From sequence record PQ850629.1: a stretch of DNA of 46,874 nucleotides; one strand, written 5' to 3'. Below are positions 6,350 through 20,222 of the stretch, one piece after another (position 1 is the first letter of the stretch; the number at the start of each line of letters is the position of its first letter). Made by a program: the position numbers and the translations under genes. The DNA comes from Escherichia phage SusanneMuster_Bas79. The notes under the pieces are model-generated. The model was not told the DNA's origin and did not search any database. It saw nothing but the letters and a program-made list of their open reading frames with translations.

Positions 6350-6357
6350 CTTATCAG

Positions 6358-6435
6358 CATACACAGAACGAATATTATTATCGCATACACAGAACGAATA
6401 TTATTATCGCATACACAGAACGAATATTATTATCG
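6358..6435. repeat. tandem direct repeat, 3 x 26 bp (CATACACAGAACGAATATTATTATCG) plus partial flanking copies
   Basis: three perfect consecutive copies read directly from the sequence, in a convergent intergenic region. Confidence 0.9.
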
Positions 6436-6470
6436 CATAGCACAATATCTCTACGACGCTGAATATTGTT

Positions 6471-8563: not shown

Positions 8564-8799
8564 AAAAGCTAAGCAACTGGCTGCTCGGCGCGTGGATTTC
8601 ATTCTGCTCACTATTGCAGCTATGGCCTGATGCAATGATGCACGTGTGGGTAATGATGCCGGACGACCTGAAAGCGGCGCTACCGCCAATCGTGGTCAAA
8701 GGTGTAAGCTACTCCATCATGCTGGTTGGTATTCTCGGAAAAATGCACGGCATGAGGAAGGAGAACCGGAGGCTGCGCAATGATGTCAATTCTCGCTAA
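8560..8799 (+). CDS. putative holin or small membrane protein
   Basis: 79 aa with two hydrophobic segments (WLLGAWISFCSLL, VSYSIMLVGILG) and basic C-terminus; lies between endolysin and spanins. Confidence 0.35.
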   Translation: MKKLSNWLLGAWISFCSLLQLWPDAMMHVWVMMPDDLKAALPPIVVKGVSYSIMLVGILGKMHGMRKENRRLRNDVNSR

Positions 8800-9271
8800 A
8801 TACTGGCGACCACTGGCAATTATTATAATTGTTGTCTCTGGCGCGTTGTGGGCGCGTAGCGAAATCATCAGCTACGGCGACCAACGATACGCAGAAGGCA
8901 AATCCCAAGCAATCGCCGAACAGAAGGCCGCAGACGAACAAGAGGAGCAACGACGCAATGCAGAACTGCAAAAGATTCAGGCTGACGCACAGCAAAGGAT
9001 TGACGCTGCGCGCAATGATGCTGTCAATGCTGCTGCTAAGTCTGGCAGGTTGCAGCAACAGCTCGCAAATATCCGCAAGCAGCTCGTCGGATATTCCACC
9101 GCTGAGTCCATTGGCAATCCAGCCGCAGAAACCGGAGTTTTGCTTGGAGACGTGCTCGGCAAATCTGTCGAAAGAAATCGACAACTGGCAGATTATGCTG
9201 ACAGGGCAAGAGAGGCAGGATTAGCGTGTGAGGCGCAGTATAATTCGCTGCGTAATAAAAAAGCCCCGTGA
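8780..9271 (+). CDS. i-spanin (Rz-like)
   Basis: N-terminal transmembrane segment LAIIIIVVSGALWA followed by a charged coiled-coil-like region; position after endolysin. Confidence 0.7.
   Translation: MMSILAKYWRPLAIIIIVVSGALWARSEIISYGDQRYAEGKSQAIAEQKAADEQEEQRRNAELQKIQADAQQRIDAARNDAVNAAAKSGRLQQQLANIRKQLVGYSTAESIGNPAAETGVLLGDVLGKSVERNRQLADYADRAREAGLACEAQYNSLRNKKAP
9015..9224 (+). CDS. o-spanin (Rz1-like lipoprotein) embedded in +1 frame of the i-spanin gene
   Basis: MMLSMLLLSLAGCSNSS lipobox followed by Pro-rich DIPPLSPLAIQPQKP; entirely inside 8780-9271 in another frame. Confidence 0.7.
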   Translation: MMLSMLLLSLAGCSNSSQISASSSSDIPPLSPLAIQPQKPEFCLETCSANLSKEIDNWQIMLTGQERQD

Positions 9272-13377: not shown

Positions 13378-15257
<1,880 letters not shown>

Positions 15258-15259
15258 TA

Positions 15260-16330
15260 ATGGAAAAGATTATTTTTACCAAAGACCTGGTAGCCAACTC
15301 CGCAGTGGTGGCTGACCAGTGGAAACATCTGACCATCGACCGCAAGGTGTTCTGCAATGCAGAAGCTGAACTGGCGAAAACATACGGTGTTAACGCCACC
15401 GCACTGGTAACGAAAGATTACTGGCGCGACGTGGATAACGTCACCACCCGCGTTTTCCGCAACGAAGCTGGTCAGGACATGATGGCTGACCTGATGGGCA
15501 TCGCGGCAAACATCAACATCGGAAAGACTGTGGCAATCAGCCGCATTGCTTCCGATGCTGGCAAGGTAGTCCGCACTCTGTCTGGTCAGGAGCCGGAAGA
15601 TTTGGATAAAACTCGCTACGATTACACTGGCGATGTGATCCCAATCTTCAAAACTGGCTACAGCCGAGAATGGCGCGAGCTGCTGGGTATGCAGTCTGAA
15701 GGCTTCGACCCACTGCTGGACGATCAGGCCAACGTCACCTTTAACCTGCGTTCCGACATGGCGCAGTATCTGCTGACCGGCGACCAGACTCTGAACGTGA
15801 ACGGCGTTTACACTGGCTATGGTATCACCAACCACCCGAACACTGTTCAGGTTAACCTGAATGCTTCCGGCGGCCTTAATATCGACCTGCAAACTGCAAC
15901 GCCAGACGAAATCGTGACCTTCTTCAATCAGGATTTCCAGGCTATTCTGGATGCGCAGAACGTATTTGAGCAGGTGACTCTGTGGGTTTCTCCGGCAGTG
16001 CGTCGTAGCTTCATGCGTCCGTATTCTGATGCGGCAGGCTTCAAAGGCGGCACTGTTGAGCAGTACATCACGCAGTTTGGCAATGGTCGCATCGGTAAGA
16101 TTGGCACCAACTTCCTGCTGACTGGTAACCATTTCGTTGGCTACGTTCGCAACGACATGTACATCCGTCCGCGTGTTGCTCAGCCAGTTTCCACCTACGC
16201 GGCAGCTCGTGCCAACCCGCACGATAACTTTAACTTCCTCGTGTGGTCTGCTTTTGGTTTGCAGATTCGCAAGGACGCCACTGGCAAGTCCAGAGTGTTC
16301 AACGGCTACGGTACGCAAACTCCGGTGTAA
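15260..16330 (+). CDS. major capsid protein
   Basis: 356 aa, follows scaffold and decoration-like genes, followed by terminator. Confidence 0.7.
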   Translation: MEKIIFTKDLVANSAVVADQWKHLTIDRKVFCNAEAELAKTYGVNATALVTKDYWRDVDNVTTRVFRNEAGQDMMADLMGIAANINIGKTVAISRIASDAGKVVRTLSGQEPEDLDKTRYDYTGDVIPIFKTGYSREWRELLGMQSEGFDPLLDDQANVTFNLRSDMAQYLLTGDQTLNVNGVYTGYGITNHPNTVQVNLNASGGLNIDLQTATPDEIVTFFNQDFQAILDAQNVFEQVTLWVSPAVRRSFMRPYSDAAGFKGGTVEQYITQFGNGRIGKIGTNFLLTGNHFVGYVRNDMYIRPRVAQPVSTYAAARANPHDNFNFLVWSAFGLQIRKDATGKSRVFNGYGTQTPV

Positions 16331-16331
16331 T

Positions 16332-16357
16332 AAAAAAAGGGGCGAAAGCCCCTTTAT
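16332..16357. terminator. hairpin terminator
   Basis: A7, stem GGGGC / GCCCC with GAAA loop, then TTTAT; reads as a stronger terminator on the minus strand. Confidence 0.5.
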
Positions 16358-16373
16358 GAATTTGAGGTGAATA

Positions 16374-16571
16374 ATGGCTAAATACGAAGTGATCGCTCGC
16401 GGAATCTTTGTTAAAGAGAAGGGCAAGATTCGTGAATTGCAGCTTGGCGAGGTGATTACCGAGCCAGACGAGCATCTGCTACCAAAACTGCGCGTTATGC
16501 CAGAACTGGAAAAGACTTTCGAAGTCGCAACCCCGCAACAAAAGACGACAAAGAAAAAGAAAGCAGAGTAA
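16374..16571 (+). CDS. hypothetical protein (65 aa, Lys-rich C-terminus)
   Basis: ORF between two terminators, downstream of capsid gene. Confidence 0.4.
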   Translation: MAKYEVIARGIFVKEKGKIRELQLGEVITEPDEHLLPKLRVMPELEKTFEVATPQQKTTKKKKAE

Positions 16572-16600
16572 ACAAAACCCGCATCATGCGGGTTTTTTAT
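16572..16600. terminator. bidirectional rho-independent terminator
   Basis: AAAACCCGC-ATCAT-GCGGGTTTTTTATT; separates convergent capsid operon and leftward accessory operon. Confidence 0.65.
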
Positions 16601-16602
16601 TG

Positions 16603-17142
16603 CTACAGACGCATCGGCATAACAACAATCTTAGCAGTCTCGCCAGATGGCGCATTAAGACAGCAAACTGCGGCATTTGTGTTTCCATTAAGTTCAAATT
16701 TGATACAACTGAATTTAGGATTAAACAGCTTCGCCACTTTCTCAACGTCAACCAGATATCCAGCATTGAAGCCAATTTCCTCTGCTGGCAAGGTCTGCTT
16801 CGGAATGACGCGATCAATATCAGGGAATCGCCCGTCAATCTCTTCACAGATACCAGCACCAACCATAACGCCAGCTTCATCATGATACGTTGCAATTTTC
16901 GACTTTGTATCAATGATGGCGTAGTCATAGCGTTTTGTTGGTGACTTGCCAATCTTGATAATCACATTTTCTGTAAGATTATTATCATGGTTTCCACCAA
17001 TAAATGCGCGATGACCGTCAGTTGATGCAATACGACCATCAGGCATAAAGCAAATGCCATTCAGGTAATATCGCACATCGTTGCGCGCCTGAAATATTAA
17101 TGCTGATTCAAGTAATAGTTTGCCGATTTTTAGTTTCATCAC
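16603..17142 (-). CDS. truncated DnaN-like (DNA polymerase III beta clamp-like) protein
   Basis: 179 aa with DVRYYLNG, TDGHR, DGRFPD-x3-V-PK, EIGFN-x-YL-DV and C-terminal VVMPMRL, matching hallmark segments of bacterial beta-clamp domain II and the C-terminal end of domain III; ATG at 17139 is the likely start. Confidence 0.7.
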   Translation of the reverse strand: MMKLKIGKLLLESALIFQARNDVRYYLNGICFMPDGRIASTDGHRAFIGGNHDNNLTENVIIKIGKSPTKRYDYAIIDTKSKIATYHDEAGVMVGAGICEEIDGRFPDIDRVIPKQTLPAEEIGFNAGYLVDVEKVAKLFNPKFSCIKFELNGNTNAAVCCLNAPSGETAKIVVMPMRL

Positions 17143-17312
17143 TTCACCTTAATCATATGCTGTTTTGCAACCTTCAGGCACTCCTCAAAAATGCCACCCT
17201 TCTTTGCGCTCTGATTGCGCTTGTAATACTGAACTGCCGCATCAATTGCCATCTGGTCGATTTCAGGCAGTTTGGTACGTAGTTGTTTTTCAATGAATTG
17301 TTCTGGTGTCAT
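17139..17312 (-). CDS. hypothetical small protein (57 aa)
   Basis: hand-translated MTPEQFIEKQLRTKLPEIDQMAID...; overlaps stop of methyltransferase and start of DnaN-like gene. Confidence 0.35.
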   Translation of the reverse strand: MTPEQFIEKQLRTKLPEIDQMAIDAAVQYYKRNQSAKKGGIFEECLKVAKQHMIKVK

Positions 17313-18112
17313 TAAACGGACCTCATGAATGCTTTAATGAATTCTGCTGCGACTTGTGGAACTATGGCATTGCCATAACCGCGCAATCGTCCCACTCTTG
17401 CGGATACCCCATGAGTTGCCTCGCAAAATCCGCCTGGTATGACTCTAGTTTCCTTATCTGCTCCATGGTTGGGTTTCCATGAATCCCATAAACATGAAGC
17501 CACATCTGGCGATAAAGAGTATCGTTCCTGAATTTTCCGTCCTTTCTGTAAAATGTCTTGCTGAGATCCCCGTAATCCTTCCATCCTCGCGCCGTTGGTG
17601 TCGCCCATCCTCGCGCCAAAGATGATTCTTTTCCTTTCCTGTGGAGAGCCGACGCTGCAAGCTGGCAATACTGACGCCCCGCAGGCGTAGCCTTTGTCTT
17701 CCAGGTTAAGGAATACAAAATCGAGCCAGTGCTTCCCAATTGCTGCTGCAACCTGCTCTCCAAACAGCAATTCAGGCTTGCACTCTCTGATGAGCCTGAG
17801 AAATGCTGGGGCAAGGTGTCGATCGTCGTCAAATCCGAGAGACTTACCGGCAACGCTAAACGGCTGGCAAGGTGGTGATCCTGTCCAGAGTCGAGTGCTT
17901 TCTGGTATTCCTGCCAGCTGGAGTGCAAGGGGCCACCCTCCGATTCCGGCAAAGAAGTGACACTGTGTAAATCCTTCCAGGTCTGAAGGGGTGACTTCGG
18001 TGATTGATCGTTCATCGACATATCCGTAAGGAATTAGTTTATTGTTAATTAATTCACGCAGCCATGCCGCTGCGCCCTTGTCCCACTCATTGTAATAGTG
18101 GACCATCATCAC
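17312..18112 (-). CDS. DNA (cytosine-5)-methyltransferase
   Basis: motif I FAGIGGW, motif IV PPCQPFS, motif VI FGEQV, motif X GNAIVPQV; compact 266 aa. Confidence 0.85.
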   Translation of the reverse strand: MMMVHYYNEWDKGAAAWLRELINNKLIPYGYVDERSITEVTPSDLEGFTQCHFFAGIGGWPLALQLAGIPESTRLWTGSPPCQPFSVAGKSLGFDDDRHLAPAFLRLIRECKPELLFGEQVAAAIGKHWLDFVFLNLEDKGYACGASVLPACSVGSPQERKRIIFGARMGDTNGARMEGLRGSQQDILQKGRKIQERYSLSPDVASCLWDSWKPNHGADKETRVIPGGFCEATHGVSARVGRLRGYGNAIVPQVAAEFIKAFMRSV

Positions 18113-18918
18113 ATCTTCTCCAGAATTGCCATCACCTCGTGAATATCAGCAACAGGAATCTGGATAAACTCCTCATTCTCTGCCACTACATGACCAGCAG
18201 GAAGAATAACGTGGTCAGCTGGCTTCAGTAACTCAATCAGTCGGTCTACTGGCTTAATCTTTTTCGACTTAAGCACCTTCGCCGTTACCTTATCCTTGCC
18301 TTGCGCCTTCGCTTCTTCGACTGCCTCGTCGATAACTTTAACCGCATCATCGCCATGTTCGCGAGTTACTGCTACGGCATTTGCATAGCTGATTTGCCCT
18401 GCACTGATTCGCGCTTTTACTTCGGCTGGCACATCACCCAGTGACAGGTGCATCTGCACGTCAGAAACTGAGCGCCCTACCTTCTTGGCGATTTCCTCGT
18501 TGGTCCAGCCAAAACCCTTCAGTCGCGTGTAAGCCTTTGCGCGTTCAAACGGGTCAAGCTGCTTACCCTGACTGGACGACACCATGAAGGCGATTTTATC
18601 TGCTTCGCCTCCTGTGAAATCCTTGCACTCAATACGAACAATTGGTGCGCCACGCTCAATGGCACGCAACGCTCCGAGATAGCGATGCTGACCATCAAGA
18701 ATGCGGATTCCCTTCTCGTCTGGAATAACTGTTAATGCTGGCAATGGCTGACCTGACTCCCAGCACTGCGCGAAATACTCCACATGCTGCTCATCTGCTT
18801 CGCGGATGTTGTATCCTGGTTCCAGATAGATTTGCTCAACTGGCACGAGATATGTCTTGTTTACCGCGATTCCGTTGCGCGTTTCTTTGTCTGAATAGAT
18901 TTTGCTTAGTGTTTTCAT
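18109..18918 (-). CDS. ParB/Srx-domain protein (ParB-like nuclease domain)
   Basis: N-terminal ILDGQHRYLGALRA (ParB box GxxRxxA), Lys/Ala-rich linker, C-terminal domain; 4-nt overlap with methyltransferase gene. Confidence 0.7.
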   Translation of the reverse strand: MKTLSKIYSDKETRNGIAVNKTYLVPVEQIYLEPGYNIREADEQHVEYFAQCWESGQPLPALTVIPDEKGIRILDGQHRYLGALRAIERGAPIVRIECKDFTGGEADKIAFMVSSSQGKQLDPFERAKAYTRLKGFGWTNEEIAKKVGRSVSDVQMHLSLGDVPAEVKARISAGQISYANAVAVTREHGDDAVKVIDEAVEEAKAQGKDKVTAKVLKSKKIKPVDRLIELLKPADHVILPAGHVVAENEEFIQIPVADIHEVMAILEKM

Positions 18919-18921
18919 TGT

Positions 18922-19563
18922 TTACTCCTCATCACCGGAATTAGCAATATCGTAAAACTGACCGTATGTTATCTGCTTAAAGTTATCAGGTATCGTTACC
19001 TGTCCATGACCTTCACCTTTTGTATTTGGCACGGCAAAAATCAGGCAATCATCCTTTTGCGGGTGTTTGCCGCCATGAGTAGACAGCATTGCAAAACCAA
19101 ATCCGCGACCAGATTGCTCTCCGATTCCGGTGCGTGCGATGCCATAATGATTAACAATATAGTCTTTCCATTCTGGCAATAACTTTAATTTCTCGTTTGC
19201 CTCGCGCATCACCGCGTCCAGATTTTTGTTGTATTCCCGCCCGTCTTTTGTGTTTCCTTTTCCGCGAGCCACGATTACACGCTGACCATCCAAGAACTCT
19301 TCGCGCTTTATTGTCACAGGGCACGGAAATTCAAACTGCTTACTCCACACAAAGCTCTCAAGTAAGCCACCACCGACTGCTCCCCAGCTACGTGTCGTGG
19401 TGAAAGCGATAGCGCCAACCTTTTTCATGGCGTCGCCAAGAACTTCATTGCGGCGCTTTTGGATGTCATCATATGCGTCAATAACTTTCTTAACATCAGC
19501 ACCTTCAACCATGTAATAATCATAATGTTTTGCATTGCTGCTCATCTTCATCACCTCTAGCAT
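18922..19563 (-). CDS. hypothetical protein (about 207-213 aa)
   Basis: first gene of leftward operon; Gly-rich with acidic C-terminus; family not recognised. Confidence 0.5.
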   Translation of the reverse strand: MLEVMKMSSNAKHYDYYMVEGADVKKVIDAYDDIQKRRNEVLGDAMKKVGAIAFTTTRSWGAVGGGLLESFVWSKQFEFPCPVTIKREEFLDGQRVIVARGKGNTKDGREYNKNLDAVMREANEKLKLLPEWKDYIVNHYGIARTGIGEQSGRGFGFAMLSTHGGKHPQKDDCLIFAVPNTKGEGHGQVTIPDNFKQITYGQFYDIANSGDEE

Positions 19564-19564
19564 T

Positions 19565-19660
19565 TATTGTTGTTTCTACGTCACTAACTATAAACGCCAC
19601 ATCAATCTACGTCAACAGGAATATGCTAAAATCATGCTAATCAAAAAACAGGAGATTTGA
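19565..19660. promoter_or_regulatory. divergent promoter region with two conserved boxes
   Basis: TTTCTACGTCAC (19573-19584), CAATCTACGTCAAC (19603-19616), extended -10 TGCTAAAAT (19624-19632), GGAG before ATG 19663. Confidence 0.45.
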
Positions 19661-19662
19661 GC

Positions 19663-19782
19663 ATGGGTTCAACAAACGGTCCTTCTCGTTCGCGCGCTAC
19701 TGGAAATACCAAAACTGGCGGAAAAACTGGCGCAGTTAAGCCAAACGGTTCCACCCGTTCACCATCGCGCGGGAAGAAATAA
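19663..19782 (+). CDS. small highly basic Gly/Ser/Thr-rich protein (39 aa)
   Basis: hand-translated MGSTNGPSRSRATGNTKTGGKTGAVKPNGSTRSPSRGKK; good RBS; TAATG overlap with next gene. Confidence 0.35.
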   Translation: MGSTNGPSRSRATGNTKTGGKTGAVKPNGSTRSPSRGKK

Positions 19783-20222
19783 TGTTCGGCGCAGACATTG
19801 CCATCATGATCATGTATGTGCTGGGTTTTGCCTGCACGGGCATGGTTGCGTTTCTGGTGTTCATTCCGGCAATGGCGATGTCTGTGTATCTTGGATGGGT
19901 GCTTGCTGATTCATTTCCCGCCGAATATCTGTATTACCTTGCGCAGTCTATGGTCTGGCTATTCCCGGCTATTGCACTGCGCAAAAGTACAAAAATGGCG
20001 CTCTGCGTGCTGACGATGAGCCTTTACGAATGGCTGGTAGCGATAGAGTCATTCGTATGGGAATTTATCACGCCTGTAGAAACGCCGCTTCATGCGCAGT
20101 ACGCATTTATTATTATCGGCATCCATCTGTTCATCCTTTCCATCACTTTTAAATGGGGCGGCGAAATTGGACATTATTCTTGGCGTGGTCGCCATTGTTT
20201 TTTCGCTGATTCAAGTCTATAA
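19782..20222 (+). CDS. integral membrane protein (about 4 TM segments)
   Basis: 146 aa, strongly hydrophobic. Confidence 0.45.
   Translation: MFGADIAIMIMYVLGFACTGMVAFLVFIPAMAMSVYLGWVLADSFPAEYLYYLAQSMVWLFPAIALRKSTKMALCVLTMSLYEWLVAIESFVWEFITPVETPLHAQYAFIIIGIHLFILSITFKWGGEIGHYSWRGRHCFFADSSL

What the first reader, a model, noticed from the sequence alone, without database searches (positions are those of the whole stretch)
17312..18918. Translationally coupled C5-cytosine methyltransferase and ParB/Srx-domain protein pair
The methyltransferase has clear motifs I, IV, VI and X but is compact (266 aa), implying a small target-recognition domain. The ParB-like gene ends 4 nt inside the methyltransferase start. 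No cognate restriction endonuclease is evident, so this looks like an orphan methyltransferase for protection of phage DNA, with the ParB-like partner possibly targeting or regulating it.
Basis: partly seen in the sequence, partly recalled or inferred. Interest (0 to 1): 0.55.

Follow-up and report, generated by a model that had tools for sequence, protein, structure and literature searches.

The report
Phage methylase hiding a nested gene
The phage's small cytosine DNA methylase gene contains a second conserved gene in another reading frame that probably supplies its DNA-recognition part, as in the rare two-piece enzyme M.EcoHK31I, and the neighbouring ParB-like gene is an independent core gene, not its partner.

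Summary
The two ORFs are real. Both lie on the minus strand of a Skatevirus-like coliphage (100% protein identity to phage Bas77): ParB-like 18109-18918 and C5-methyltransferase 17312-18112, joined by a GTGA overlap.

They are not a conserved pair. Only 9 of 80 ParB-bearing viral loci carry the methylase. A 98.5%-identical methylase sits in a Kagunavirus, and a 60%-identical one in a P2-like prophage, both without ParB. The slot after ParB also holds unrelated small genes or an N6/N4 methylase.

The small size does not mean a small recognition domain. A 219-codon ORF (18021-17362) lies nested in the +1 frame. That frame stays open in 46 of 48 family loci, which codon shuffles almost never reproduce. 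Substitutions in the variable region fall on the +1 wobble position. The +1 product carries WPTP-type modules and a motif IX-like "LMGYPxEW". The main frame reads the same DNA as a poorly conserved, low-confidence linker between motifs VIII and X.

This is the architecture of M.EcoHK31I (alpha = motifs I-VIII and X; nested beta = motif IX). The methylase is therefore probably a two-polypeptide orphan enzyme, and an accessory anti-restriction gene. Homology to M.EcoHK31I and enzyme activity are untested.

The parts
19587..19615 (-). Sigma-70-like promoter of the leftward operon (TTGACG, 17 nt spacer, TATAGT). It is overlapped by two copies of the repeated motif TGACGTAGA (window 19606-19614 and 19575-19583).
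   Evidence: 10 of 12 consensus matches, the only strong hit in 16300-19900; 6 exact copies of the 9-mer against 0.15 expected; the pair, 30-31 bp apart, is conserved upstream of the ParB operon in nearly all Skatevirus-like loci.
18922..19563 (-). First gene of the operon, 213 aa, function unknown ('EaC protein' in relatives).
   Evidence: phrog_2260 at 3.2e-57; no Pfam hit. Bas77 has two small genes here instead.
18109..18918 (-). ParB/KorB/Noc-like DNA-binding protein, 269 aa: ParB/Srx-type N-terminal domain with a divergent box II (G76-Q-H-R79), an HTH, and a C-terminal domain. It is a core gene of the phage group.
   Evidence: At least 80% identical in about 185 phage records.
17312..18112 (-). 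C5-cytosine methyltransferase main frame ('alpha'), 265/266 aa. Motif order is II-III-I-IV-VI-VIII, then a low-confidence linker (residues about 168-244), then motif X.
   Evidence: AF2: residues 1-170 confident; residues 171-208 and 228-246 below pLDDT 50. Foldseek top hit M.HhaI at 2e-7.
17362..18021 (-). Nested +1-frame ORF ('beta'), 219 aa from ATG 18021 (second ATG at 18015). The conserved part begins near LNCCLESRL and contains WATPTA, RNDTLYRQMWLH and the motif IX-like FARQLMGYPQEWD. It stops just before motif X of the main frame.
   Evidence: One search lists the ORF. phrog_1008 'DNA methyltransferase' at 9.7e-20. The +1 frame is open in 46 of 48 family loci. Shuffles reach this length in 0/1000 for the window. 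Substitutions show +1 wobble. Alignment. The best HhaI match is motif IX. Annotated as 'Mte8-like protein' or 'DNA methyltransferase' in phages K1ind2 and K1H.
17139..17312 (-). Conserved 57-aa protein of unknown function. Its start overlaps the methylase stop (TAATG).
   Evidence: phrog_4439 at 4.1e-23. It directly follows ParB in 18 loci that lack any insert.
16603..17142 (-). Last gene of the operon, 179 aa, weakly similar to the DNA polymerase III beta clamp. It is labelled 'RusA-like' in PHROGs.
16574..16596 (.). Bidirectional intrinsic terminator-like hairpin that ends the operon.
   Evidence: 10-bp stem with T-runs on both strands.

Best explanation
The methylase locus encodes a two-polypeptide C5-cytosine DNA methyltransferase with the M.EcoHK31I architecture.

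The annotated frame ('alpha', 265 aa) supplies the catalytic large domain. Its N-terminal part is permuted (motif II-III before motif I), followed by motifs IV, VI and VIII and the C-terminal motif X helix. Alpha reads the stretch between motifs VIII and X as a weakly constrained linker.

The same DNA in the +1 frame encodes 'beta' (219 aa, own ATG at 18021 or 18015). Its conserved C-terminal ~135 residues form the small domain: the target-recognition modules (WPTP-type) plus motif IX.

The inference is that alpha and beta associate to methylate phage DNA after replication. The enzyme is an orphan: there is no endonuclease. It is an accessory gene sitting in a hypervariable slot of a leftward early operon (promoter 19615-19587, terminator 16574-16596), and it probably protects against particular host restriction enzymes. 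Its specificity varies between relatives through exchange of the beta-frame modules.

The ParB-like gene just upstream is a separate core gene. It is most likely a KorB/Noc-like DNA-binding regulator, possibly acting at the TGACGTAGA promoter-associated repeats.

Shown here: both frames are conserved and under selection; the motif content; the gene distribution. Inferred: beta is translated, alpha and beta form a heterodimer, the target sequence, the anti-restriction role, and the ParB function.
For: (1) Nested frame. The +1 frame is open for 217-453 codons in 46 of 48 loci carrying a family member, across Skatevirus, Kagunavirus, a P2-like prophage and metagenomic phages with recognition regions of all lengths. 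The +2 frame is open for only 1-94 codons.

(2) The open length is not explained by protein sequence or codon usage. Synonymous-codon shuffles and codon permutations reach it in 0/1000 for the window, at most 0.9% in 21 of the other 22 divergent loci, and 2.5% in the GC-rich L109. Within the window, only this gene (223 of 267 codons) and the Rz/Rz1 spanin gene, a known nested pair (131 of 164), stand out.

(3) Selection switches frame along the gene (window, L005 and L091). In codons 34-100, differences by main-frame codon position are about [15,14,40], which is main-frame wobble. In the 77 codons between motifs VIII and X they are [29,17,15], [41,19,19] and [29,14,14], which is +1 wobble. There, +1 amino-acid identity is 0.59-0.70 against 0.40-0.53 in the main frame. 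After the +1 stop, main-frame wobble returns.

(4) Synonymous codon identity at conserved residues rises from 0.39-0.42 outside the conserved beta region to 0.55-0.59 inside it.

(5) The +1 proteins of 16 divergent loci align with conserved blocks: L.SSLE.RLR..L, Y.LTWK.K.TP.GR, WPTP...D modules, and LNP..S.WLMGFP.EW. The single best match of this profile in M.HhaI is motif IX, residues 267-291.

(6) The main-frame linker is below pLDDT 50 and only 14% identical across 13 divergent relatives.

(7) The +1 product belongs to a recognised phage family (phrog_1008 at 9.7e-20) and has been annotated as an overlapping ORF in K1ind2 and K1H.

(8) Precedent: in M.EcoHK31I, beta lies entirely within another frame of alpha, alpha carries motifs I-VIII and X, beta carries motif IX, both are required, and the N-terminal 42 residues of beta are dispensable (PMC2836561; PMC3404938).

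(9) Accessory, ParB-independent status.

(10) Operon structure.
Against: - There is no direct evidence that beta is translated. Its Shine-Dalgarno-like element is weak (GGA from the invariant G29 codon).
- The motif IX assignment rests on pattern and a weak hhalign score (E 0.031). The beta profile finds nothing in PDB, Pfam or NCBIfam.
- In the compact type found in this window, the usual 'LNP' of motif IX is replaced by 'LES'.
- The main frame keeps its own weakly motif IX-like stretch (RVIPGGFCEATHGVS) before motif X, so alpha might work alone.
- The M.EcoHK31I sequence could not be obtained, so homology is untested. The literature places that enzyme's recognition domain in alpha, not beta.
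- The sampled loci share ancestry, so the counts are not independent events.
- Bas77, which carries the identical gene, is reported as markedly sensitive to the tested restriction-modification systems (PMC11990801). Any protection is therefore narrow or unproven.
Confidence: 0.6

Rival explanations
1. This is an ordinary single-chain orphan C5-methyltransferase with an unusually small recognition domain. The +1 ORF is a non-functional by-product.
For: The main frame is complete with motifs I, IV, VI, VIII and X. 259 of 270 called family proteins are this type. Gene callers rarely call the +1 ORF: 201 proteins against more than 8000. PGAP annotates one gene only.
Against: The +1 frame is kept open in 46 of 48 loci, which shuffles almost never reproduce. 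Substitutions show +1 wobble, and +1 amino-acid identity is higher in the variable region. The main-frame region is low-confidence and unalignable.
Confidence: 0.12
2. One polypeptide is made by programmed frameshifting: main frame, then +1 for the recognition domain and motif IX, then back to the main frame for motif X. Alternatively, a main-frame-to-+1 fusion isoform is made.
For: Spliced that way, the product would have a canonical VIII, recognition domain, IX, X order. Rare database proteins fuse the catalytic N-terminus to the +1-type C-terminus (P0269, P0353).
Against: Both frames stay open over their whole overlap, which frameshifting does not require. The window gene has no homopolymer of 6 or more bases and no XXXYYYZ heptamer, and none is conserved at one position across the family. 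Two compensating shifts would be unprecedented. Most members (33 of 40) have an ATG in the +1 frame at the same place. M.EcoHK31I beta uses its own start codons.
Confidence: 0.08
3. The ParB-like protein and the methylase form a functional pair. ParB loads, targets or activates the methylase, as ParB176 activates the phage T-dioxygenase 5mYOX176 or DpdB assists DpdA.
For: When present, the methylase is always immediately downstream of ParB, usually with a 4-nt overlap (9 of 9 and 8 of 9 loci). ParB-dependent DNA-modifying enzymes exist in phages (PMC13229309).
Against: 71 of 80 ParB loci lack the methylase. ParB is at least 80% identical in about 185 phage records, the methylase in 15. A 98.5%-identical methylase lies between a 63-aa gene and a helicase in Kagunavirus Bas76, and a 60%-identical one lies upstream of gpA in a P2-like prophage, both without ParB. 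The same slot and overlap are used by unrelated genes. This ParB keeps its HTH, whereas the 5mYOX-associated ParBs lack a DNA-binding domain.
Confidence: 0.08
4. The nested +1 ORF is a real gene, but its product is not a methylase subunit. It could be, for example, a regulator or an inhibitor of a host defence.
For: No database domain is detected. In Klebsiella phages the +1 frame runs on into an endonuclease VII domain.
Against: It co-occurs strictly with this methylase family. It ends with a motif IX-like block placed exactly before motif X. It occupies exactly the gap where the small domain is missing from alpha. There is a direct precedent in M.EcoHK31I.
Confidence: 0.1

Closest known systems
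M.EcoHK31I (and, from my own memory, its isoschizomer M.EaeI): a heterodimeric C5-methyltransferase recognising YGGCCR
   Same: Alpha carries motifs I-VIII and X. Beta is encoded entirely inside the alpha gene in another reading frame and carries motif IX. The N-terminal part of beta is dispensable in M.EcoHK31I (PMC2836561, PMC3404938) and is unconstrained here.
   Different: M.EcoHK31I belongs to a restriction-modification system, whereas this is an orphan phage gene. The literature assigns the recognition domain to alpha, whereas here selection shows the variable region is read in the beta frame. A permuted motif order is not reported for M.EcoHK31I. Sequence homology could not be tested.
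M.AquI: a two-subunit C5-methyltransferase recognising CYCGRG
   Same: It is a natural split C5-methyltransferase made of two polypeptides (PMC3404938).
   Different: M.AquI is split linearly within the variable region: alpha carries motifs I-VIII and beta carries IX-X. The ORFs are not fully nested, and motif X is on the small subunit.
M.HhaI and M.HaeIII: canonical monomeric C5-methyltransferases (PF00145)
   Same: They share the catalytic motifs IV, VI and VIII, the fold of the large domain (Foldseek 2e-7), and the presumed mechanism through Cys81 and Glu118.
   Different: They are single chains with motif order I-II-III-IV and the recognition domain plus motif IX in frame. Here motifs II-III precede I, and the recognition domain and motif IX lie in the +1 frame.
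KorB (RK2), Noc and chromosomal ParB/Spo0J
   Same: The ParB-like protein shares the N-terminal ParB/Srx domain plus the HTH (profile 8.7e-15; Foldseek about 1e-9). Like KorB, it could act at multiple promoter-associated sites.
   Different: Box II is GQHR, not GERR. Box III is SSSQGK, not ENLQRE, so residues needed for CTP hydrolysis are missing. No ParA partner is annotated, and the phage is virulent. The binding site is unknown.
ParB proteins that assist DNA-modifying enzymes (5mYOX-associated ParB176; DpdB of the dpd system)
   Same: They are ParB-fold proteins encoded next to a DNA base-modifying enzyme in a phage or a defence island.
   Different: Those ParBs lack an HTH and co-occur with, and are required by, their enzyme (PMC13229309). 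Here the HTH is present and co-occurrence is weak (9 of 80 loci).
Rz/Rz1 spanin genes
   Same: This is another fully nested +1-frame gene pair in the same window (8780-9271). It was picked up by the same open-frame test.
   Different: The function is unrelated. It serves only as a positive control for the method.

Membership tests
C5-cytosine DNA methyltransferase (PF00145) | Motif I FxGxG (AdoMet loop) | tested here: met
   F52-F-A-G-I-G-G58. It aligns to HhaI residues 3-32 and is invariant in 34 homologues.
C5-cytosine DNA methyltransferase (PF00145) | Motif IV PCQ with the catalytic Cys; motif VI ENV-type Glu; motif VIII QxRxR | tested here: met
   P80-C81-Q82, G117-E118-Q119-V120, and Q-E-R159-K-R161. 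Pfam 9.9e-22 over residues 70-172; HhaI alignment; invariant columns.
C5-cytosine DNA methyltransferase (PF00145) | Motif X GN(A/S)V at the C-terminus | tested here: met
   G246-N-A-I-V-P251 is at least 90% conserved, within a confident C-terminal helix at 251-264.
C5-cytosine DNA methyltransferase (PF00145) | Canonical motif order I-II-III-IV | tested here: not met
   YYNEWDKGAA (residues 5-14) aligns to HhaI motif II, residues 37-46, upstream of motif I. TIGR00675 aligns residues 6-169 to profile positions 25-162. The AF2 secondary-structure order is strand-helix-strand before the motif I strand, and only 15 residues separate motifs I and IV.
C5-cytosine DNA methyltransferase (PF00145) | Recognition domain and motif IX in the same chain between motifs VIII and X | tested here: not met
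   The main-frame segment 168-244 is low-confidence and weakly constrained. The canonical motif IX-like block lies in the +1 frame.
C5-cytosine DNA methyltransferase (PF00145) | Transfers methyl to C5 of cytosine in DNA | not testable with these tools
   This needs bisulfite, EM-seq or nanopore methylome data, or an in vitro assay.
M.EcoHK31I-type heterodimeric C5-methyltransferase | Alpha chain with motifs I-VIII and X but no canonical motif IX | tested here: met
M.EcoHK31I-type heterodimeric C5-methyltransferase | Beta ORF lies entirely within the alpha gene in another reading frame | tested here: met
   18021..17362 lies inside 18112..17312, in the +1 frame. This is conserved in 46 of 48 loci and is significant against shuffles.
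M.EcoHK31I-type heterodimeric C5-methyltransferase | Beta carries motif IX | tested here: inconclusive
   The conserved block LNP..S.WLMGFP.EW reads FARQLMGYPQEWD in the window. The only hhalign match in M.HhaI is motif IX, but E is 0.031. There is no PDB or Pfam hit.
M.EcoHK31I-type heterodimeric C5-methyltransferase | Both polypeptides are made and both are required for activity | not testable with these tools
   Only evolutionary constraint on both frames is shown.
M.EcoHK31I-type heterodimeric C5-methyltransferase | Sequence homology to M.EcoHK31I alpha and beta | not tested
   No sequence was available. The original paper (PMC306636) is not held and no supplement is held.
M.EcoHK31I-type heterodimeric C5-methyltransferase | Paired with a cognate restriction endonuclease | tested here: not met
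   The neighbours are ParB-like, a 57-aa protein and a clamp-like protein. No endonuclease is annotated in Bas77 except HNH types.
ParB/Spo0J/KorB/Noc family | N-terminal ParB/Srx domain followed by a ParB-type HTH | tested here: met
   Profile against Spo0J 1vz0, residues 43-183, at 8.7e-15. HTH_ParB at 2.5e-11. Foldseek matches to ParB, Noc and KorB.
ParB/Spo0J/KorB/Noc family | CTPase motifs: box II GERRxRA and box III ENLQRE | tested here: not met
   The family consensus has DGQHRYLGA and SSSQGKQL at these positions. Whether any nucleotide is bound is unknown.
ParB/Spo0J/KorB/Noc family | Cognate parS or operator sites and a ParA (or KorA) partner | tested here: inconclusive
   No ParA is annotated in Bas77. 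Candidate sites are the TGACGTAGA pairs at early promoters, but nothing links them to this protein.
ParB-dependent DNA-modification modules (5mYOX-ParB, DpdB) | ParB lacks a DNA-binding domain and strictly co-occurs with its enzyme | tested here: not met
   The HTH is present. The methylase is present in 9 of 80 ParB loci, and it occurs elsewhere without ParB.

The most novel reading that the evidence does not exclude
The whole phrog_363 family of phage and prophage C5-methyltransferases (over 3000 clusters at 50% identity with E below 1e-30) consists of obligate alpha/beta enzymes. The complete target-recognition domain and motif IX are encoded in a fully nested +1 frame, and the catalytic chain reads the same DNA as a disordered linker. 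Specificity would then diversify by swapping modules in the beta frame. The family would be one of the largest sets of same-strand nested dual-coding genes in bacteriophages, almost entirely missing from current annotation, and it also has a non-circular permutation of the AdoMet-binding subdomain.
Probability: 0.45. Interest if true: 0.75.

Novelty: new member of a known kind. Interest (0 to 1): 0.55.

Why it matters
- If beta is the recognition subunit, the annotated 'compact' methylases of many enterobacterial, Burkholderia, Rhodobacter and other phages are only half of the enzyme.
- Specificity predictions, heterologous expression and phage engineering that clone or recode only the annotated frame would fail or mislead. 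For example, codon optimisation would destroy beta.
- Genome annotation pipelines miss the second gene: PGAP annotates one feature.
- It would turn the isolated curiosity M.EcoHK31I into a widespread phage design, and give a natural split-methylase scaffold with exchangeable recognition modules.
- It shows that gene adjacency and translational coupling with ParB here reflect an insertion hotspot, not a functional pair.

Tried and rejected
- Queuosine/dpd-type modification with a DpdB-like ParB was considered because relatives looked like 9g-type phages. The window is in fact Skatevirus-like, with no DpdA or 7-deazaguanine genes annotated in the near-identical Bas77.
- A TET/5mYOX-coupled GpC methylase or CmoX-type carboxymethyltransferase was considered. 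The operon has no dioxygenase, glycosyltransferase or CmoA-like gene, and motif X keeps GN. Not pursued further.
- ParB co-occurrence with the methylase was tested and rejected.
- Searches with the beta product found nothing in Pfam, NCBIfam, PDB sequences (single sequence and profile) or by cluster names.
- A programmed frameshift was considered. No slippery heptamer or homopolymer occurs in the window gene, and none is conserved across the family.
- The M.EcoHK31I sequence or original paper could not be obtained.
- The afdb50 fold library was unavailable.
- The target sequence of the enzyme could not be inferred.
Full report
**Context.** The window is a roughly 47-kb siphovirus of the Skatevirus cluster. 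The 3.2 kb around the finding is 99.3% identical to Escherichia phage ClaudiaMuster_Bas77. Both proteins are 100% identical to those of Bas77.

Both ORFs are on the minus strand, inside a compact leftward operon. A sigma-70-like promoter (TTGACG, 17 nt, TATAGT; 19615-19587) drives five genes: a 213-aa gene of unknown function, ParB-like, the methylase, a 57-aa gene and a clamp-like 179-aa gene. The operon ends at a bidirectional terminator at 16574-16596. All gene junctions overlap by 1-4 nt.

**Observation.** ParB-like runs 18918..18109 (269 aa). The methylase runs 18112..17312 (266 aa from GTG, or 265 aa from the ATG at 18109 as annotated in Bas77). The junction reads GTGATGATG.

The methylase is a PF00145 member (9.9e-22). 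It resembles M.HhaI by sequence (4.5e-12) and by fold (Foldseek 2e-7), and it has intact motifs I, IV, VI, VIII and X.

The ParB-like protein has the ParB/Srx N-terminal domain plus a ParB-type HTH: profile against Spo0J 8.7e-15, AF2 pLDDT 86.9, Foldseek hits to ParB, Noc and KorB at about 1e-9. Its nucleotide-binding motifs are divergent. Box II is GQHR instead of GERR, and box III is SSSQGK instead of ENLQRE.

**The two genes are not a conserved pair.**
- In the phage database, the ParB-like protein is at least 80% identical in about 185 records. The methylase is at least 80% identical in 15 records and 60-80% identical in 33, some of them in another genus.
- Of 80 IMG/VR loci retrieved through the ParB-like protein, only 9 carry a methylase of this family within 4 kb.
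- In the other loci, the position directly after ParB holds one of three things: nothing (the 57-aa gene follows directly), one of many unrelated 56-121-aa genes, or in 3 loci a DPPY-type N6/N4 methylase. These usually start with the same 4-nt overlap.
- Salmonella phage Akira has an 83-aa gene in the slot. Klebsiella phage YX3973 has a 331-aa methylase plus endonuclease VII.
- Conversely, a 98.5%-identical methylase lies between a 63-aa gene and the helicase of Kagunavirus Bas76. A 60%-identical one with the same compact C-terminus lies upstream of gpA in a P2-like prophage. Another lies next to a DNA polymerase. None has a ParB nearby.

The slot is therefore an insertion hotspot downstream of a core gene, and the coupling is generic. 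ParB-dependent DNA-modifying enzymes do exist in phages (T-dioxygenases; PMC13229309). Those ParBs lack a DNA-binding domain and co-occur with their enzyme, which is not the case here.

**The methylase family.** The family is very large: 20,163 representatives at E up to 0.001 and 3,063 below 1e-30. The first ~170 residues are 50-80% identical and start at residue 1-2 of the hits. The C-terminal part varies in length, giving proteins of 251-610 aa. One member carries an intein at the PCQ motif.

The N-terminus is permuted. YYNEWDKGAA (residues 5-14) aligns with HhaI motif II (residues 37-46). VDERSI follows as a motif III-like segment. Only then comes motif I (FFAGIGG), 15 residues before motif IV. 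The AF2 secondary-structure order agrees.

**The nested +1 ORF.** The listing contains a 219-codon ORF (18021..17362) in the +1 frame of the methylase gene. Its C-terminus resembled the C-terminus of a family member called in a different frame (P0269; BLAST 1e-7).

- **The frame stays open.** In 46 of 48 loci with a family member (40 distinct genes from Skatevirus, Kagunavirus, a P2-like prophage and diverse metagenomic phages, with any length of variable region), the +1 frame is open for 217-453 codons. It runs from about codon 1-50 (mostly 20-36) to near, or in some Klebsiella and metagenomic loci beyond, the methylase stop (mostly 14-89 nt before it). The +2 frame is open for only 1-94 codons.
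- **Shuffles almost never reproduce it.** Synonymous-codon shuffles and codon permutations reach the observed length in 0/1000 for the window, at most 0.9% in 21 of the other 22 divergent loci, and 2.5% in GC-rich L109.
- **It is an outlier in the window.** Among all genes of the window, only this gene (223 of 267 codons) and the Rz spanin gene, which hosts the known nested Rz1 (131 of 164), are clear outliers.
- **The +1 product is a recognised family.** It matches phrog_1008 'DNA methyltransferase' at 9.7e-20 (3e-32 for the Klebsiella version). It was annotated as an overlapping 'Mte8-like protein' or second 'DNA methyltransferase' in phages K1ind2 and K1H. It is otherwise rarely called: 201 proteins against more than 8000. 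PGAP does not annotate it.

**Which frame is under selection.** For the three diverged genes with the compact C-terminus (window, L005, L091), nucleotide differences by main-frame codon position show the pattern below.

| Region (main-frame codons) | Differences at positions 1, 2, 3 | Reading |
|---|---|---|
| 34-100 | [15,14,40], [14,12,39], [14,10,35] | main-frame wobble; +1 identity only 0.35-0.38 |
| 101-165 | mixed | both frames constrained |
| 77 codons between motifs VIII and X | [29,17,15], [41,19,19], [29,14,14] | wobble of the +1 frame |
| after the +1 stop | back to position 3 | main-frame wobble |

In the 77-codon region, amino-acid identity is 0.67, 0.59 and 0.70 in the +1 frame against 0.52, 0.40 and 0.53 in the main frame.

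Across 13 divergent genes, identical residues use identical codons in 39-42% of cases outside the conserved beta region. Inside it the figure is 55-59%.

The +1 proteins of 16 divergent loci align with these conserved blocks: L.SSLE.RLR..L, GS..Y.LTWK.K.TP.GR.YC.L.AS..RT, one to four WPTP...D modules, and a terminal SG...LNP..S.WLMGFP.EW..C. The last block is the only region of M.HhaI that the +1 profile matches. It is motif IX (residues 267-291), at a weak E of 0.031.

In the main frame, the same DNA gives G/S/R/E/Q-rich sequence. It is 14% identical between relatives and below pLDDT 50 in the model.

Motif X (GNAIVP) follows in the main frame immediately after the +1 stop.

In 33 of 40 genes, an ATG in the +1 frame is created by the invariant Asp32 codon GAT plus the next codon. 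The invariant Gly29 codon (GGA, or GGAG) lies 6-7 nt upstream as a weak Shine-Dalgarno element.

No slippery site is present.

**Interpretation.** The main frame encodes exactly the large domain of a C5-methyltransferase: motifs I-VIII plus X. The +1 frame encodes exactly what is missing: the small domain, made of recognition modules plus motif IX.

This is the published architecture of M.EcoHK31I. Its beta is encoded entirely within another frame of alpha. [quoted passage not shown] Both are required, and the N-terminal 42 residues of beta are dispensable (PMC2836561; PMC3404938).

I therefore consider the gene a two-polypeptide orphan methylase. The length differences between relatives (265-350 aa) reflect different beta-frame recognition modules, not a 'small' recognition domain.

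The literature places the M.EcoHK31I recognition domain in alpha. The selection pattern here places it in beta.

**Role.** The gene has no endonuclease partner. It shares its slot with another methylase class. Its recognition modules differ between phages whose catalytic part is 83-91% identical. This fits an accessory anti-restriction methylase.

Bas77, which carries the identical gene, is described as markedly sensitive to the restriction-modification systems tested in the BASEL study (PMC11990801). Protection, if any, is therefore specific to other enzymes.

**The ParB-like protein.** It is a core early gene with an HTH, so a KorB/Noc-like DNA-binding regulator is the most economical reading.

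A 9-mer, TGACGTAGA (TCTACGTCA on the plus strand), occurs 6 times exactly against 0.15 expected. Counting one-mismatch variants, it occurs in pairs 17-31 bp apart in intergenic regions that head the leftward operons. In the ParB operon, one copy overlaps the -35 hexamer and the other lies just after the -10 hexamer.

This pair is conserved upstream of ParB in nearly all Skatevirus-like loci, whatever genes intervene. It is absent from loci of distant ParB homologues. Nothing yet links the motif to the ParB-like protein, so this is a lead only.

**Verdict.** The orphan-methylase reading holds. The ParB partnership and the 'small recognition domain' do not. The real point of interest is the conserved nested second gene. 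That makes this a new, phage-borne, orphan member of the M.EcoHK31I kind, and suggests the design is widespread and largely unannotated.

Noticed in passing
window 7777, 10599, 19575, 19606, 40709 (+ strand) and 44682 (- strand); one-mismatch copies at 2726, 7748, 24544, 38340 and 44699: The 9-mer TCTACGTCA (TGACGTAGA on the other strand) occurs 6 times exactly against 0.15 expected. With variants it occurs in pairs 17-31 bp apart in intergenic regions upstream of leftward operons. At the ParB operon it overlaps the -35 hexamer and the transcription start region. It is a candidate operator or promoter element of the phage's early genes.
   Followed up: partly
window 8780-9271 (+): The Rz-like spanin gene has a 131-codon open +1 frame, 80% of the gene. 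This is consistent with an embedded Rz1-type o-spanin. It served as a positive control for the nested-ORF test.
   Followed up: no
window 16603-17142 (-): This 179-aa protein is labelled 'RusA-like Holliday junction resolvase' in PHROGs and RefSeq. Here it matches only DNA polymerase III beta-clamp domains, weakly, so the label looks wrong. Its +1 frame is also unusually open (119 of 180 codons).
   Followed up: no
L004/L041 (Klebsiella phage YX3973) and relatives L052, L063, L071, L118-L120: In these phages the nested +1 ORF has no stop at the usual place and runs in frame into the downstream endonuclease VII gene (449-453 codons; Pfam Endonuclease_7 at 6.2e-24). This suggests a possible beta-endonuclease VII fusion protein.
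   Followed up: partly
protein P0297 (610 aa, metagenomic homologue): This family member has an intein (Hint plus LAGLIDADG domains) inserted at the catalytic PCQ motif.
   Followed up: no
L015 and two similar IMG/VR loci, directly after the ParB-like gene: The same slot holds a DPPY-motif N6/N4 DNA methyltransferase (166-239 aa) instead of the C5 enzyme. Other loci hold about 20 different small unknown genes, mostly starting with the same 4-nt overlap.
   Followed up: partly
window 6357-6439: Three perfect tandem copies of a 26-nt unit are reported as 31-nt overlapping repeats: GCATACACAGAACGAATATTATTATCGCATA.
   Followed up: no
methylase residues 1-77 (window 18109-17879, - strand): The AdoMet-binding subdomain has a non-circular permutation: the motif II and III segments precede motif I. 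This holds throughout the family, since hits start at residue 1-2. I found no description of it in the searchable literature.
   Followed up: partly
L098 and L101 (IMG/VR Kagunavirus-like loci): The methylase N-terminus is shifted out of frame at a T7/T8 run, where relatives have T6 at codon 49. This could be a sequencing error or a natural frameshift at a homopolymer.
   Followed up: no
window 15254-16426 (-): A 390-codon ORF lies antisense to the major capsid gene (15260-16330, +). It is probably a compositional artefact of the antisense frame and was not examined.
   Followed up: no
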